Shown here piece after piece: positions 46,877 through 49,800 of a stretch of DNA of 64,000 nucleotides. The DNA is from Nanobdellota archaeon. GTDB taxonomy: Archaea > Nanobdellota > Nanobdellia > JAAOXT01. The notes beneath the pieces were generated by a model. That model did not search any database, had not been told where the DNA came from, and saw only the letters and a program-made list of their open reading frames with translations. How positions within the stretch are numbered: position 1 is the first letter of the stretch; every line of letters begins with the position of its first letter. The position numbers were made by a program, and so were the translations under genes. Location of the stretch: NCBI GenBank assembly GCA_018221045.1, contig JAAOXT010000001.1, positions 603-64,602 on the forward strand, given 5' to 3'.

Positions 46877-49800
46877 TTGAAATCTCTCGAAAACAAGAAC
46901 GCGCTGGTAGTTTTAGGAATAACTATTTTTATCTTTTTTTTCGTGCTGGCAGGTTTCTCCAGCAAAGATTTCTTAAAAAGAAACGTTGTTTCACTGCTTT
47001 GCGTGTTTTGGTCAATGGTTCTTGCAATCAACTTTTTACTCCTTGAAAATCCTATTGGAAATAAAGCGTTCTCAAAACTTTTTTTCTACGCCTTAATAAT
47101 GTCTTTTTTCATGGTTTACACAGTGTTTTTCAGTGATCCACAAATCGTTTTGGCTGCTTCGGCAGAGTACGGGCCTTGCTCGGTTGACGGGGACTGTAAT
47201 TCAAATAATTGTGTTTACAACTATACTTATTCAGGAACAGGAACTCCTGAAAAGATTTGCTGCGACGCTAGCCAGTGTGCCGTGTGGTTTGGAGGGCCTC
47301 CTTCTTCAACAAATTGTATTAATGAGAATCAGTGCGCTGGTGTAGCGTACGGTTCTGATATAGGTTACTTTCCAGTTGGATGTGTTCTTGAAAGACCTGA
47401 TACAACCCTGAGGGCTTGCGGTTGTGATTACAGCGGGAATCCAGCGGATAGTACGGGGTGGGACGCTACTGGAACCAAATGCTGTTCGTATTCTGACGAC
47501 GACTGGCTTTTCACTGGGAGTTCAACAAAAGGATGCGACAACGGAGTAGTGGTTGATTGCGCTTCAGGAACTGCTTGCCGTTTCATTGACGGGGCGACGG
47601 ATTATTACTGCACGGGAAGCATTTTTACCACGTCTTCCACAGCGAAAGGCCAGACCTGTAACACGAATTATGTTTGTACTGCAGATGACGGGACTTGTTG
47701 CAATTCAAACCTTGTTAAGGACACGGATACGAGCACTTACAATTGTGGTTGCGACGCTTATCATGACGGGTTCGCGTGCGACGGGTCAGTGACTGGTGGA
47801 ACGTTTACGCAGGATAAGGTTTGCATGTTCGTGGCTGCACAGAGTAATTACTTGTGCTACGCGGCGATGGCTTCTTATAACATCGGGCTTAACAGGTATA
47901 TTTACGGCTGCGAATACCCTACAGGAACTCCTCTTTACGGCGATTCATGCGACACGACTTACACTGACGGCAACTTCGACGCGAACGGAATTTGTTATGG
48001 TTCAGGAAGTTGTTGCACCACTACTTACGTGGACGGAGACAATGATGGAAATTTTGACGATAATGATTGTGGATGCTCCTCCACTCATGATGGTAAGAGA
48101 TGTGACAGCAACGTTGACCGTACTTGGGATGGTGTGTGCGCGTATACTGGTGCTGCATGGACTTGCGACACTTCGGATGTTTTTTATGATGGGTCTGATT
48201 ACAGGACGGCTGGTTCGAGCGCTACGGATGGTTACAGGTGCAGGAGTGGTTCAGTGGGTTCTGGAGGCTTTTCGCAGAACGGGATGGGTTCAGCAAGCTC
48301 TTGCACTACCTCTGACGTGGTTTGCCCTAGTGGAAAAGGCAGTGCTTGTTCGTCTTGCTCGTCAAGTTCTGATGGAAACATGTGCGATTCTACAGTGACT
48401 TCAGGAGATTTTGGGCAGACAGGTATTTGCGCCAGCTCTGATGGGAATTCTTTTGATTGTGATACTTCTGGACACGTGGTTTACACAGGAAGTTACTATG
48501 ATACATCTTGTTCCATTTCTGAAGACGGAAAAATGTGTGATAATACTATTACGAGCGGGGGGAACTTTGGTCAAGATGGTTCCTGCGCTACGAGTGATGA
48601 GGGAACTACTTGGATGTGCGACACCGACGCATCGGACGTGGCGAGCACTGGAACTTACAACGCCACGGACTGCTACGTGAGCGCGACGTACAATTACTTG
48701 GCTAACTCTTGCGACAGTCTCGGAAACAGCGGAGGAAACGTGGCTTATGATGGGGTTTGCTTCCTGCAAATAGATACAACTTGGAATTGTTGCACGACTT
48801 ACGCGACCAACAGCACTGAAATCGATAACCCTGACGTGTGCGGTAACGAGGCAACAGTGTGTGGCGCGAGTTCGAATGGGCTAAAATGTGATGACGTGAG
48901 TGACGCGACGTGGGCGCCAGGAGATAAGCGGTGCGATGAAAGCGGCACGGCTTGCAGAACTTGCACTTTCGCTACTCGCGTTGACACTGAAAGTCTTTGC
49001 GAATCAGGGTGCGGGGCCAACAGTGTTTGCGACGAGATAGCCATAGAAGCTGTTACAGGGAATTATTGTTGTGGTGACTGTGTATCCCCTGATAACACTG
49101 TTTCAGGAACGGTTGTTTGGGGGGACTGCGACCACAAGTCGCAGACAGGATCAAGCGATTATTGTTTTGATTTGAGCGCTGACCAGTGCTTCCATCAGTC
49201 AGGGGACTCGTGCATTGCTACGGGCTGGACTTTAACTGAAACTGGTTGTCCGAACCCGCGATACCAAAACCAGGCTGGAAGCTGGGTTAACAACTCTTAC
49301 TGCACGAGCGACTGCGCCGATTCTGGCACATCGTGCTATTATGAAACCAGTTTGAACACTCCTGCTGACAGGTCTGATGATTGCGGTGCGTCGGGTTGCC
49401 AGGTCAGTTCCTGCTCAATGCAGAAAGGTTTCCTTTGCCAGTATTCTACAGGGTGCTCGTGCGATAACACGGAGTGCGCTGCTGACGCGGTAAGACAAGG
49501 ATACCAGACAGGCAGTTGCTCTGGCGGGGCGTGCAATTACGCTCCAAAAGTTGACTCGCATTCCATGAGCCCGGATCCTGTGTACGTTAACGAAGAAGTG
49601 ACTTTTTTGGCAACTGTCTCGTCGGATGACGGGGACATCGCGAAAACAGAGGTTTGGGCTTATGTTACAGGAGATTACTCTGCTTATGAGATGAGTTGCA
49701 CTGACGGCTCCTGCAGTTATTCGCATAACTTCACCAGCCTCGGACAAGGAAATTATTACATTAACGTTACAGACAATGATGGTTTGAGCAACACTAGCAG

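What the first reader, a model, noticed from the sequence alone, without database searches (positions are those of the whole stretch)
47744..48946. Degenerate tandem repeat array with core D-G-x-x-C-D-x(2)-[VI]-T-S-G-x-F-G-Q-x-G-x-C in the giant protein
About seven units between aa 290 and 690 share a recognisable core. The two best-conserved neighbours are SDGNMCDSTVTSGDFGQTGICASSDGNSFDCDTSGHV and EDGKMCDNTITSGGNFGQDGSCATSDEGTTWMCDTDASDV. The Asp/Gly/Thr-rich loops between fixed cysteines resemble calcium- or glycan-binding repeat architectures, but I do not recognise this repeat as a named family. The repeats are divergent at the DNA level, which argues for an old, selected array rather than recent slippage.
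Basis: seen in the sequence. Interest (0 to 1): 0.6.

Follow-up and report, generated by a model that had tools for sequence, protein, structure and literature searches.

The report
New four-cysteine repeat, DPANN surface protein
The repeat is real: seven copies of a roughly 51-residue, two-disulfide mini-domain that matches no described protein family or solved structure sit in the outer part of a giant membrane-anchored surface protein of a tiny DPANN archaeon, probably as a rigid, sugar-free contact or spacer module whose function is untested.

Summary
Observation confirmed. The 1800-aa ORF (46877-52279, +) carries seven tandem units (aa 289-654, period 46-58 aa). They score 10-50 bits against a family-wide profile; 500 composition-preserving shuffles reach at most 6.3 bits. 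An eighth unit (aa 662-696) is not significant. No DNA-level repeat exists, and dN/dS against the 89%-identical ortholog is 0.05.

The unit matches nothing in Pfam, NCBIfam or PDB sequences. A confident two-unit AlphaFold model (pLDDT 88) has no Foldseek match. Only 55 of 1.84 billion protein clusters carry it. Most named ones are giant DPANN surface proteins, with a few from other lineages.

Cysteine co-loss and parity across 406 units imply C1-C3 and C2-C4 disulfides, plus an optional linker disulfide. The genome encodes a membrane-anchored DsbA-like oxidoreductase.

The arrays are acidic, depleted of N-glycosylation sequons and 4-fold enriched in DxDxDG calcium-loop motifs.

Best reading: an uncurated, disulfide-stapled extracellular repeat forming a glycan-free contact or spacer module. 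The calcium/glycan idea is only partly supported. Function is inferred, not shown.

The parts
46877..52279 (+). Gene for the 1800-aa giant surface protein (TTG start; stop at 52277-52279)
   Evidence: ORF list and translation. The same 1800-aa protein is on record as P0003, and an 89%-identical, 2077-aa ortholog (P0002) lies in a syntenic locus. Whole-gene dN/dS is 0.08.
46877..47161 (+). N-terminal hydrophobic region (aa 1-95): three hydrophobic segments followed by an A-S-A motif. It is a signal or anchor for export.
   Evidence: Kyte-Doolittle windows above 1.6 fall between aa 4 and 88. The region is conserved as coding (dN/dS 0.16). Cleavage after ASA is inferred and not tested.
47162..47740 (+). 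Non-repeat Cys-rich N-module (aa 96-288). Its first part (aa 101-200) is hypervariable.
   Evidence: Identity to the ortholog is only 46% over aa 101-200, against 81-95% elsewhere, with a 23-aa indel. dN is 0.31 for aa 96-200. The contig C3 paralog carries the same module.
47741..47908 (+). Repeat unit 1 (aa 289-344)
   Evidence: 25.7 bits against the family-wide profile; shuffle maximum 6.3
47909..48064 (+). Repeat unit 2 (aa 345-396). It has 'CC' at the C4 position and an acidic DGDNDGNFDDND loop (aa 386-397, nt 48032-48067).
   Evidence: 27.6 bits. The DxDxDG-like motif is at aa 386. The 'CC' followed by 'CGC' linker-disulfide pattern is shown.
48065..48208 (+). Repeat unit 3 (aa 397-444), the short 'W-D-G-x-C' subtype
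   Evidence: 42.3 bits. The subtype is conserved in P0002 and P0004.
48209..48346 (+). Repeat unit 4 (aa 445-490), a subtype that lacks both C1 and C3
   Evidence: 26.5 bits. It is listed among the units lacking C3, and it also lacks C1.
48347..48502 (+).
   Evidence: 50.2 bits. AlphaFold pLDDT block means are 89-96 in the two-unit model.
48503..48670 (+).
   Evidence: 25.4 bits. pLDDT block means are 87-95 for the core. In the ortholog, a 299-aa insertion separates it from unit 5.
48671..48838 (+). Repeat unit 7 (aa 599-654), degenerate, with 'CC' at the C4 position
   Evidence: 10.1 bits, still above every shuffle. It is poorly modelled in the three-unit prediction.
48839..49546 (+). Further Cys-rich region (aa 655-890) with no significant copy of the unit. 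It includes the non-significant eighth candidate at aa 662-696.
   Evidence: The candidate scores -4.1 bits.
49547..52186 (+). Cys-poor, sequon-rich C-terminal half (aa 891-1770), presumably the glycosylated stalk
   Evidence: It holds 34 N-x-S/T sequons against 15.4 expected; none of 5000 shuffles reached 34. Pfam gives only a faint DUF7507 match. Its last ~300 aa are 24-26% identical to giant ORFs in five other genera.
52193..52276 (+). C-terminal hydrophobic anchor (aa 1773-1800; ...LLPGLNASFLVLLLLVAGFFLWERL)
   Evidence: Hydropathy and sequence. No PGF-CTERM model hit in NCBIfam.

Best explanation
The array is seven tandem copies of an uncurated extracellular mini-domain of about 51 residues. 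Its consensus is x3-C1-x5-G-x2-C2-D-[ST]-x-[VI]-T-x-G-x-[FYW]-x-[QA]-x-G-x-C3-x(4-10)-C4-x-T-x3-V-x-[YF]-D.

Each unit is a small beta-hairpin module. Two disulfides, C1-C3 and C2-C4, pin the N-terminal loop onto the two hairpin strands. About half of the junctions between units carry a further disulfide that closes the linker.

Proposed steps (all inferred):
1. The protein is exported through its N-terminal hydrophobic region.
2. It is held in the membrane by its C-terminal hydrophobic segment.
3. It is oxidised outside the cell by the genome's membrane-anchored DsbA-like enzyme.

In this lineage the array lies in the membrane-distal N-terminal third, above a heavily N-glycosylated stalk. The array itself is acidic and almost free of glycosylation sites. 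I read it as a rigid, protease-resistant, glycan-free rod that presents or forms a contact surface for another cell or a substrate. Acidic DxDxDG loops in some units probably bind calcium and stiffen the rod.

The array changes by gain and loss of whole-unit cassettes, not by slippage.

Shown here: the repeat, its family, its conservation, the cysteine pairing rules, the sequon asymmetry and the cassette indel. Inferred: the topology, oxidation by the DsbA-like enzyme, calcium binding and the contact function.
For: **Repeat is real.**

**Coding and selected.** dN/dS for the array is 0.053 at dS 1.1.

**Family.**
- 55 clusters reach E<=1e-3 among 1.84 billion representatives; 27 reach E<=1e-10, and many are 3000-6000 aa.
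- 17 of 400 sampled genomes of the phylum carry it (16 of 281 genera). Most matches lie in open frames of 800-4477 aa.
- Named members are Woesearchaeota, Pacearchaeota, Aenigmarchaeota, Micrarchaeota, Altiarchaeota and Nanoarchaeota. There is one MAG each labelled Methanoregula, Kariarchaeaceae, Patescibacteria and Bdellovibrio, plus a Methanosarcinales-labelled contig.
- Partner domains are extracellular: LamG, DUF2341, subtilase, fn3/Big and, by the sources' own names, beta-helix.

**Disulfides (406 units).**
- C2 is present in 98%, C4 in 95% and C3 in 92% of units; G26 is present in 96%.
- C1 against C3, as [[both present, only C1], [only C3, neither]], is [[283,0],[14,16]], Fisher p=5e-19.
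- C2 against C4 is [[381,5],[2,4]], p=2e-6.
- The number of Cys between C4 of one unit and C2 of the next is odd in 259 of 267 junctions when the next unit has C3. It is even in 25 of 25 junctions when it lacks C3.
- 'CC' at C4 is followed by an extra Cys at the next unit's start in 26 of 29 cases (p=1e-4).

**Structure.** The two-unit AlphaFold model has pLDDT 88 and pTM 0.77. C3 and C4 lie on adjacent strands (E26-30, E36-39).

**Oxidation.** A Thioredoxin_4 (DsbA-type) gene lies at genome contig C7:7218-8030. It has an N-terminal hydrophobic segment and a CPFC site.

**Sequons.** The Cys-rich region has 4 against 11 expected (p=0.007). The arrays of four relatives are also depleted. The C-terminal half has 34 against 15.4 expected.

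**Charge.** The array has 48 D+E against 10 K+R.

**Cassette dynamics.**

**Literature.** Giant LamG- or Ig-bearing surface proteins of DPANN archaea are proposed mediators of host attachment (PMC10266531, read).
Against: - No experiment or expression data exist.
- Disulfide connectivity rests on co-loss and parity, not on geometry, because the tool returns no model coordinates.
- Units of one subtype share ancestry, so the joint C1/C3 loss represents perhaps three or four independent events, not sixteen.
- The array's position varies widely among family members. Only 16 of 31 long proteins have it in the N-terminal half, and only 3 of 31 have a C-terminal hydrophobic segment. The 'distal tip' layout therefore holds for this lineage, not for the family.
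- Strong purifying selection on the array fits a structural spacer as well as a binding surface. The hypervariable part is the module upstream of the array (aa 101-200).
- No VKOR-type re-oxidant was found.
- The organism is probably anaerobic. This is my inference from the relative's bin name, which I recall as Guaymas Basin sediment. Extracellular oxidation is therefore plausible but unproven.
Confidence: 0.6

Rival explanations
1. The array is a purely structural spacer or a cell-coat (S-layer-like) component. It only adds length and rigidity and binds no specific partner.
For: - Purifying selection is strong (dN/dS 0.053), whereas the neighbouring N-module is the variable part.
- The locus is syntenic and sits next to an AglB glycosylation island.
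- The C-terminal half is sequon-rich, as in archaeal coat glycoproteins.
- The array sits anywhere along family members, like a generic building block.
Against: - The repeat occurs in only 17 of 400 sampled genomes of the phylum.
- Outside its own genus, the whole protein is found only as a distant C-terminal match in 5 of 29 related genomes. That is too patchy for a core envelope protein.
- The unit count differs (7 against 13) between 89%-identical orthologs.
- Arrays are kept free of glycans, which suggests an exposed functional surface.
- Partner domains are lectin-like or proteolytic.
Confidence: 0.27
2. The array is primarily a calcium-binding repeat. Each unit would coordinate Ca2+ through its conserved Asp, Thr and Gly residues, like calcium-binding EGF domains or thrombospondin type 3 repeats.
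For: - D.[DN].[DN]G motifs are 4-fold enriched in arrays of the family (55 against 13.2 expected).
- One canonical loop, DGDNDGNFDDND, closed by Cys on both sides, lies at aa 386-397.
- Units that have lost the C1-C3 disulfide often start with DYDxDxDxDG.
- Asp after C2 is 74% conserved.
- The array is strongly acidic.
Against: - The motifs are confined to certain subtypes and linkers.
- There is no Pfam match to TSP_3, calcium-binding EGF or other calcium-binding repeat models.
- No site geometry could be examined.
- The best-conserved positions are four Cys and two Gly, which points to a disulfide scaffold.
Confidence: 0.1
3. The unit is a divergent member of an already named cysteine-rich family (EGF-like, TNFR/furin-like, Giardia VSP-type CXXC repeats, the NCBIfam acidic double-disulfide repeat) that sequence tools merely fail to recognise.
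For: - The inferred 1-3/2-4 connectivity, with C3 and C4 on the two strands of a hairpin, matches the N-terminal sub-domain of EGF (my knowledge of EGF).
- The noise-level Foldseek hits include EGF-like, follistatin, HER2 and NELL1 EGF chains.
Against: - No Pfam or NCBIfam hit to any such model, even at E<=10 or E<=1.
- The PDB profile search reaches E=0.38 at best.
- Foldseek reaches E=5.4 or worse, with TM-scores of 0.29 or less, for a model with pLDDT 88.
- The unit has four core Cys, not six.
- The C2-C3 spacing of 14 residues, with the conserved VTxGxFxQxG segment, has no EGF counterpart.
Confidence: 0.03

Closest known systems
EGF-like domains in tandem arrays, including calcium-binding EGF (fibrillin, Notch)
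   Same: - A small extracellular beta-hairpin module of about 40-50 aa, used in long tandem arrays.
- Inferred C1-C3 and C2-C4 disulfides, with C3 and C4 on the two hairpin strands.
- Acidic residues that may bind Ca2+ and stiffen the links between modules.
   Different: - Four core Cys, not six. There is no C5-C6 sub-domain.
- Different spacing, with 14 residues between C2 and C3 that carry a conserved VTxGxFxQxG segment.
- No Pfam EGF hit and no significant Foldseek hit.
- Known so far almost only from DPANN archaea.
Thrombospondin type 3 repeats and other DxDxDG calcium loops (Pfam TSP_3 PF02412; MopE-type 'putative metal-binding motif' PF11617)
   Same: - The unit-2 linker CC-TTTYV-DGDNDGNFDDND-CGC is an acidic DxDxDG loop closed by cysteines, like a TSP3 loop.
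- MopE-type motifs (NCxDxxDNDGDGxxD) cap the arrays of several relatives. PF11617 is detected in relative P0012.
   Different: - The motif occurs once in this protein and only in some unit subtypes.
- The repeating unit itself is not a TSP3 repeat.
- No PF02412 hit.
Giardia variant-specific surface proteins and other protist Cys-rich coat proteins
   Same: - Membrane-anchored ectodomain with about 10% Cys.
- C-x-x-C and C-x-C pairs.
- Presumed protease-resistant disulfide-rich surface.
- Family members differ by cassette content.
   Different: - No sequence relationship (no Pfam VSP hit).
- Here the repeat is regular, with four conserved Cys.
- Only two paralogs per genome, so there is no evidence of antigenic switching.
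Other unnamed Cys-rich modules of giant DPANN surface proteins noted in this scan (for example the 'CW...C...CxW...C' two-disulfide modules)
   Same: - Same organism group and the same kind of giant membrane-anchored glycoprotein.
- Also two-disulfide mini-domains with no family name (AI notes, unchecked).
   Different: - Different motif: no conserved Trp pattern.
- This family is patchy (about 4% of sampled genomes), whereas those are reported as once-per-genome core proteins.
- I did not test any relationship.

Membership tests
EGF-like domain (Pfam PF00008 and relatives) | Match to the family HMM at or above the curated cut-off | tested here: not met
   hmmscan against Pfam-A found no EGF-type hit. 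It was run on the whole protein at E<=1 and on the array alone at E<=10.
EGF-like domain (Pfam PF00008 and relatives) | Six cysteines paired 1-3, 2-4 and 5-6 | tested here: not met
   There are four conserved Cys per unit. The 1-3 and 2-4 pairing is supported by co-loss and parity. There is no conserved C5-C6 pair; the optional third disulfide spans the linker to the next unit.
EGF-like domain (Pfam PF00008 and relatives) | Structural superposition on solved EGF domains | tested here: not met
   The best EGF-type Foldseek hits are 2flg (E=5.4, target-normalised TM 0.25) and 6pol (E=9.9). None reaches E<=0.001.
Thrombospondin type 3 repeat (PF02412) | HMM match and tandem DxDxDGxxDxxDxC calcium loops | tested here: not met
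   No PF02412 hit. A single motif-level resemblance exists at aa 386-398.
NCBIfam cysteine-rich repeat models (for example the 'acidic double-disulfide repeat' NF033662 named in an earlier scan note) | Match to any NCBIfam model | tested here: not met
   The NCBIfam scan gave 0 families at E<=1 for P0001, P0002 and P0005. P0004 hits only choice-of-anchor X and OmpL47 models, outside its array.
Giardia VSP (Pfam PF03302) | HMM match, CXXC-rich ectodomain and conserved C-terminal CRGKA tail | tested here: not met
   No Pfam hit. The C-terminus here is ...FFLWERL.
The unnamed 4-Cys repeat family defined here (profile A2, built from 48 units of the five proteins; later a 406-unit profile) | Tandem units with 45-63 aa spacing, conserved C1, C2-D, G-x-C3 and C4-x-T, and an aromatic residue at profile position 22 | tested here: met
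   Seven units score 10-50 bits. Column frequencies are and the spacing.
The unnamed 4-Cys repeat family defined here (profile A2, built from 48 units of the five proteins; later a 406-unit profile) | Occurrence in large secreted or membrane-anchored proteins | tested here: met
   This protein has N- and C-terminal hydrophobic segments. Twenty of 31 long family members have an N-terminal hydrophobic segment. Partner domains are extracellular.
The unnamed 4-Cys repeat family defined here (profile A2, built from 48 units of the five proteins; later a 406-unit profile) | All cysteines oxidised, in the C1-C3 / C2-C4 pattern | not testable with these tools
   Supported statistically only. Confirmation needs disulfide mapping or model coordinates.

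The most novel reading that the evidence does not exclude
The unit may be a new disulfide-rich fold that DPANN archaea, and perhaps some CPR bacteria, use as a modular partner-recognition rod. Calcium-stiffened, glycan-free arrays would be built from interchangeable multi-unit cassettes. Gain, loss and exchange of cassettes between paralogs would retune reach or specificity for the host cell surface. This would be a prokaryotic analogue of EGF or cadherin-type adhesion arrays, arising independently in episymbionts.
Probability: 0.2. Interest if true: 0.65.

Novelty: new variant of a known kind. Interest (0 to 1): 0.42.

Why it matters
How DPANN archaea recognise and hold on to their hosts is an open question. 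Their giant surface proteins are the usual suspects, but most of their sequence has no annotation.

This work gives one such stretch a concrete definition:
- a profile that recovers about 400 units in 56 proteins;
- a disulfide map;
- a confident predicted mini-domain with no known structural relative;
- a rule for how the arrays change, by whole-unit cassettes.

That makes the segment annotatable as a candidate new Pfam-type family. It is also testable, because a two-unit construct of about 110 residues is small enough for NMR, crystallography and binding assays.

On its own the finding is a modest advance. Cysteine-rich extracellular repeats are a familiar kind of module, and no function is shown.

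Tried and rejected
- **Self-BLASTP of the Cys-rich region** returned only the identity hit. I replaced it with HMM scans and shuffle controls.
- **MAFFT on overlapping three-unit windows** aligned the overlaps, not the repeat register (alignment A1, 626 columns). I discarded it and used non-overlapping windows (A3, A4).
- **Three-unit AlphaFold model** from a 16-row alignment was only moderate (pLDDT 69.7, unit 7 poor). The two-unit model from 80 rows superseded it.
- **Foldseek** against PDB (twice) and BFVD gave nothing below E=4.6.
- **PDB sequence searches** with the unit profile and with the whole protein gave nothing.
The single-protein scan found only the known ortholog and one Methanosarcinales-labelled contig.
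- **VKOR search** in the genome was negative.
- **Four literature searches** found no description of this repeat. The 'secreted cysteine-rich protein' in the Roizmanbacteria paper is only a passing mention of a gene beside a CRISPR locus.
- **Compositional artefact** was considered and rejected on the shuffle controls, the cross-genome profile and the confident fold.
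Full report
**Where and what**

The finding lies inside one long ORF, 46877-52279 on the + strand. It has a TTG start and encodes 1800 aa. An archaeal SRP RNA gene lies directly upstream, at 46558-46836 (133 bits). A tRNA-Ser gene lies directly downstream.

The assembly holding the window is 830 kb in 31 contigs. The nearest relative carries an 89%-identical ortholog in a syntenic locus. Its record is labelled 'Candidatus Parvarchaeota archaeon isolate Meg19_1012_Bin_507', GCA_017609605.1. More distant homologs are labelled Woesearchaeota. 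The organism is therefore a small-genome DPANN archaeon.

The finding's coordinates correspond exactly to codons 290-690, and both quoted peptides are present.

**Is the repeat real?**

Yes. The best score among 500 composition-preserving shuffles of the rest of the Cys-rich region was 6.4 bits.

After collecting units from relatives I built a profile from 406 units of 56 proteins. Against it, the window's protein has seven units:

| Unit | Residues matched | Bits |
|---|---|---|
| 1 | 289-336 | 25.7 |
| 2 | 355-395 | 27.6 |
| 3 | 397-444 | 42.3 |
| 4 | 447-486 | 26.5 |
| 5 | 491-542 | 50.2 |
| 6 | 543-598 | 25.4 |
| 7 | 602-647 | 10.1 |

The shuffle maximum was 6.3 bits. Start-to-start spacing is 46-58 aa here and 45-63 aa in relatives.

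An eighth candidate at aa 662-696 looks like a unit by eye but is not significant (-4.1 bits). A truncated remnant may precede unit 1 (aa 254-288; -6.3 bits, so by eye only).

No repeat is detectable at the DNA level. Units 5 and 6 are 57% identical in protein and 55% in nucleotides.

**Is it a known family?**

I found no evidence that it is.
- Pfam-A gives nothing for the whole protein except a faint, sub-threshold DUF7507 match far downstream.
- Pfam-A gives nothing for the array alone at E<=10.
- NCBIfam gives zero families at E<=1.
- A profile search of all PDB sequences reaches E=0.38 at best.
- Four full-text literature searches found no description of the repeat.

**Distribution**

The unit profile was scored against 1.84 billion representative proteins. 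It finds only 55 clusters at E<=1e-3 and 27 at E<=1e-10. Many are giants of 3000-6160 aa with up to 20 or so units.

Names given by the sources are mostly DPANN: Woesearchaeota, Pacearchaeota, Aenigmarchaeota, Micrarchaeota, Altiarchaeota and Nanoarchaeota. Single MAGs are labelled Methanoregula, Kariarchaeaceae (Asgard), Patescibacteria and Bdellovibrio. One contig is labelled Methanosarcinales. MAG labels can reflect mis-binning, so I do not lean on the non-DPANN cases.

Among 400 other genomes sampled evenly from the window's phylum, 17 carry the repeat (16 of 281 genera). Most matches lie in open frames of 800-4477 aa. The family is therefore rare and patchy.

The window's own genome has exactly two genes with the repeat: this one and a paralog at the end of contig C3. 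The paralog's N-terminus is cut by the contig end; it has 7-8 units, depending on the profile used.

Partner domains in relatives are extracellular:
- LamG / concanavalin-like lectin, DUF2341 and a subtilase;
- LamG;
- fn3 and Big;
- 'right-handed parallel beta-helix' and 'DNRLRE domain' by the sources' own names.

**Anatomy of the unit**

Across the 406 units, the best-conserved profile positions are:

| Position | Conservation |
|---|---|
| C2 (position 13) | 98% |
| G26 | 96% |
| C4 | 95% |
| C3 | 92% |
| D14 | 74% |
| C1 | 70%, plus 22% alignment gaps |
| G10 | 67% |
| Aromatic residue at position 22 | 84% |

**Cysteine pairing rules**

The cysteines obey strict rules.
- C1 and C3 are lost together. 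Written as [[both present, only C1 present], [only C3 present, neither present]], the table is [[283,0],[14,16]], Fisher p=5e-19.
- Several of the 14 'only C3' units have C1 displaced by a few residues rather than lost.
- C2 and C4 also co-vary: [[381,5],[2,4]], p=2e-6.
- I counted every Cys between C4 of one unit and C2 of the next. The number is odd (1, 3 or 5) in 259 of 267 junctions when the next unit has C3. It is even (0 or 2) in all 25 junctions when the next unit lacks C3.
- A 'CC' doublet at C4 is followed by an extra Cys at the start of the next unit ('CGC', 'CxxC') in 26 of 29 cases, against 143 of 270 otherwise (p=1e-4).

The simplest reading is that every Cys is paired. C1 pairs with C3 and C2 with C4. 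In about 57% of junctions (153 of 267) a further disulfide closes the linker between units. The window's array (aa 289-654) has 32 Cys, an even number.

One caveat applies. Units of one subtype share ancestry, so the joint C1/C3 loss reflects perhaps three or four independent events, not sixteen.

**Predicted structure**

A three-unit model from a 16-row alignment was moderate (pLDDT 69.7).

A two-unit model (aa 491-600), from 80 in-register two-unit windows, is confident: mean pLDDT 88.0, pTM 0.77, with 75 of 110 residues at pLDDT 90 or above. Each unit is a small beta module. C3 and C4 lie on the two strands of a hairpin (E26-30 and E36-39 in unit 5), followed by short strands.

Foldseek of this model finds nothing, with best E=7.7 against PDB and 4.6 against BFVD. 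Foldseek of the three-unit model against PDB also finds nothing (best E=5.4). Among the noise-level hits are EGF-like, follistatin, HER2 and NELL1-EGF chains.

From my knowledge of EGF, its N-terminal sub-domain has the same arrangement: 1-3 and 2-4 pairing, with C3 and C4 on the major hairpin. The unit therefore works like an EGF-type disulfide-stapled hairpin, but it fails every membership test for EGF.

The tool returns no coordinates, so I could not check disulfide or metal-site geometry.

**Selection and dynamics**

Against the ortholog, dN/dS is 0.053 in the array (dS 1.1) and 0.08 over the whole gene. The N-module at aa 96-200 is hypervariable: 46% identity over aa 101-200, a 23-aa indel, and dN 0.31.

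The ortholog has 13 units, not 7. A single 299-aa block of six units is inserted exactly at the unit 5 / unit 6 boundary.

Unit-by-unit comparison within the ortholog shows an ancient four-unit cassette present twice:

| First copy | Second copy | Identity |
|---|---|---|
| U2 | U2' | 36% |
| U3 | U3' | 52% |
| U4 | U4' | 73% |
| U5 | U6 | 52% |

The in-register block alignment scores 502, against 289 and 342 for the two out-of-register controls. The same cassette occurs in the Woesearchaeota protein P0004 at 43-44% identity.

The contig C3 paralog shares the adjacency 'U5-like, a, b' with the ortholog. The ortholog's extra block is 48.5% identical to the paralog but only 37% to the window's protein.

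I infer that the window's lineage lost six units. The reverse, an insertion in the ortholog, is not excluded.

It is also still remodelled, in whole-unit steps.

**Context that bears on function**

- The protein has three hydrophobic segments in aa 4-88, followed by an A-S-A motif, and a C-terminal hydrophobic segment at aa 1773-1800.
- The Cys-rich part (aa 96-890) has 78 Cys; the rest of the protein has 18.
- N-x-S/T sequons are strongly asymmetric. The Cys-rich part has 4 against 11.0 expected (p=0.007). The array has 2 against 5.4 expected. The C-terminal half has 34 against 15.4 expected, and none of 5000 shuffles reached 34. The arrays of P0002, P0004, P0005 and the paralog are also depleted (p=0.001-0.03).
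- An AglB (STT3) glycosylation gene cluster lies 5 kb downstream (read on the syntenic locus).
- The genome encodes a DsbA-type Thioredoxin_4 protein with an N-terminal hydrophobic segment and a CPFC active site (138.5 bits). It has no VKOR.
- The array is acidic, with 48 D+E against 10 K+R.
- D.[DN].[DN]G motifs are 4-fold enriched in arrays of the family (55 against 13.2 expected). They sit in four places: the 'CC...CGC' linkers (here DGDNDGNFDDND, aa 386-397); the C2-C3 loop of the unit-3 subtype in relatives; the N-terminus of units that lack C1 and C3 (DYDxDxDxDG); and MopE-type caps at the ends of arrays (PF11617 detected in P0012).

**Interpretation**

Shown here:
- a real, selected, uncurated repeat family;
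- cysteine rules implying two intra-unit disulfides and an optional linker disulfide;
- a confident model with no detectable structural relative;
- sequon avoidance;
- cassette-wise evolution;
- association with extracellular lectin-like and protease domains in giant proteins, mainly of DPANN archaea.

Inferred: the ectodomain is exported and anchored by its C-terminal segment. The array then lies in the membrane-distal third, above a glycosylated stalk. It is oxidised by the DsbA-like enzyme and forms a rigid, protease-resistant, glycan-free acidic rod, partly stiffened by calcium. That rod presents or constitutes a contact surface.

Giant LamG- or Ig-bearing surface proteins are the proposed host-attachment devices of DPANN archaea (PMC10266531). 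That fits, but it is not evidence for this protein.

The main rival is a pure spacer or coat role. The strong purifying selection supports it, as does the fact that the hypervariable segment is the module upstream of the array. The position of the array also varies along family members, so the 'distal tip' layout is lineage-specific.

Glycan binding is untested.

**Limits**

- There are no model coordinates.
- No AlphaFold DB or HHsearch library was available.
- Taxon labels come from MAG records.

**Verdict**

The feature is a new repeat family of a familiar general kind, the disulfide-rich extracellular tandem module. Interest is moderate.

Noticed in passing
window 46558-46836 (+): An archaeal SRP RNA gene (Rfam RF01857, 133 bits) sits about 40 nt upstream of the giant gene's TTG start. 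It lies between two genes for Cys-rich exported proteins.
   Followed up: partly
window 45377-46543 (+) versus locus L001: The 388-aa Cys-rich gene upstream of the SRP RNA is absent from the syntenic locus of the 89%-identical relative. There, a 304-aa gene is followed after 340 nt by the giant gene. The paralogous N-module gene is therefore lineage-specific.
   Followed up: partly
window 47177-47476 (aa 101-200 of the giant protein): This is a hypervariable segment. It is 46% identical to the ortholog, against 81-95% elsewhere, and has a 23-aa indel. For aa 96-200, dN is 0.31 and dS is saturated. It is a better candidate for a specificity-determining tip than the repeat array.
   Followed up: partly
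window 49547-52186 versus 47162-49546: The sequon asymmetry is sharp. The Cys-poor C-terminal half has 34 N-x-S/T sites against 15.4 expected. The Cys-rich half has 4 against 11 expected.
   Followed up: yes
genome contig C3, minus strand, last 3.5 kb of the contig (ORF of 1183 aa = P0010): This is a second gene with the same N-module and 7-8 units of the repeat, cut by the contig end. Its units 'a' and 'b' match the extra block of the ortholog P0002 better than anything in the window's protein.
   Followed up: partly
genome contig C7:7218-8030 (+), locus L014: A DsbA-type Thioredoxin_4 protein (138.5 bits) with an N-terminal hydrophobic segment and a CPFC active site. It is a plausible extracellular disulfide oxidase for the Cys-rich surface proteins. 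No VKOR was found.
   Followed up: partly
genome contig C15:13500-13745 (-), locus L015: A weak, sub-threshold exosortase/archaeosortase-like match (PF09721, 21.4 bits against a cut-off of 25.7) in a 183-aa ORF. It could bear on the PG-hydrophobic-basic C-terminal tail of the giant protein.
   Followed up: no
window 46001-50000: G+C rises to 0.46-0.50 over the Cys-rich half of the gene, against about 0.41-0.43 around it. dS against the ortholog is also higher there: 1.1-1.3, against 0.65 in the C-terminal half.
   Followed up: no
relatives P0005 aa 1699, P0006 aa 838, P0008 aa 290, P0013 aa 1369, P0014 aa 1843, P0016 aa 495, P0031 aa 1350: Arrays in several relatives end with a MopE-type 'NCxDxxDND[GC]DGxxD' putative metal-binding motif. 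The window's protein lacks this cap.
   Followed up: no
relative P0011 (3052 aa), aa 739-1051: A sub-threshold Hint/intein-splicing-domain match (24.5 bits against a cut-off of 35.8) inside a giant protein that carries 19 units of the repeat.
   Followed up: no
window 52306-52391 (+) and 37125-37198 (+): A tRNA-Ser(GCT) gene lies 27 nt after the giant gene's stop codon. A tRNA-Ile(GAT) gene lies further upstream.
   Followed up: no
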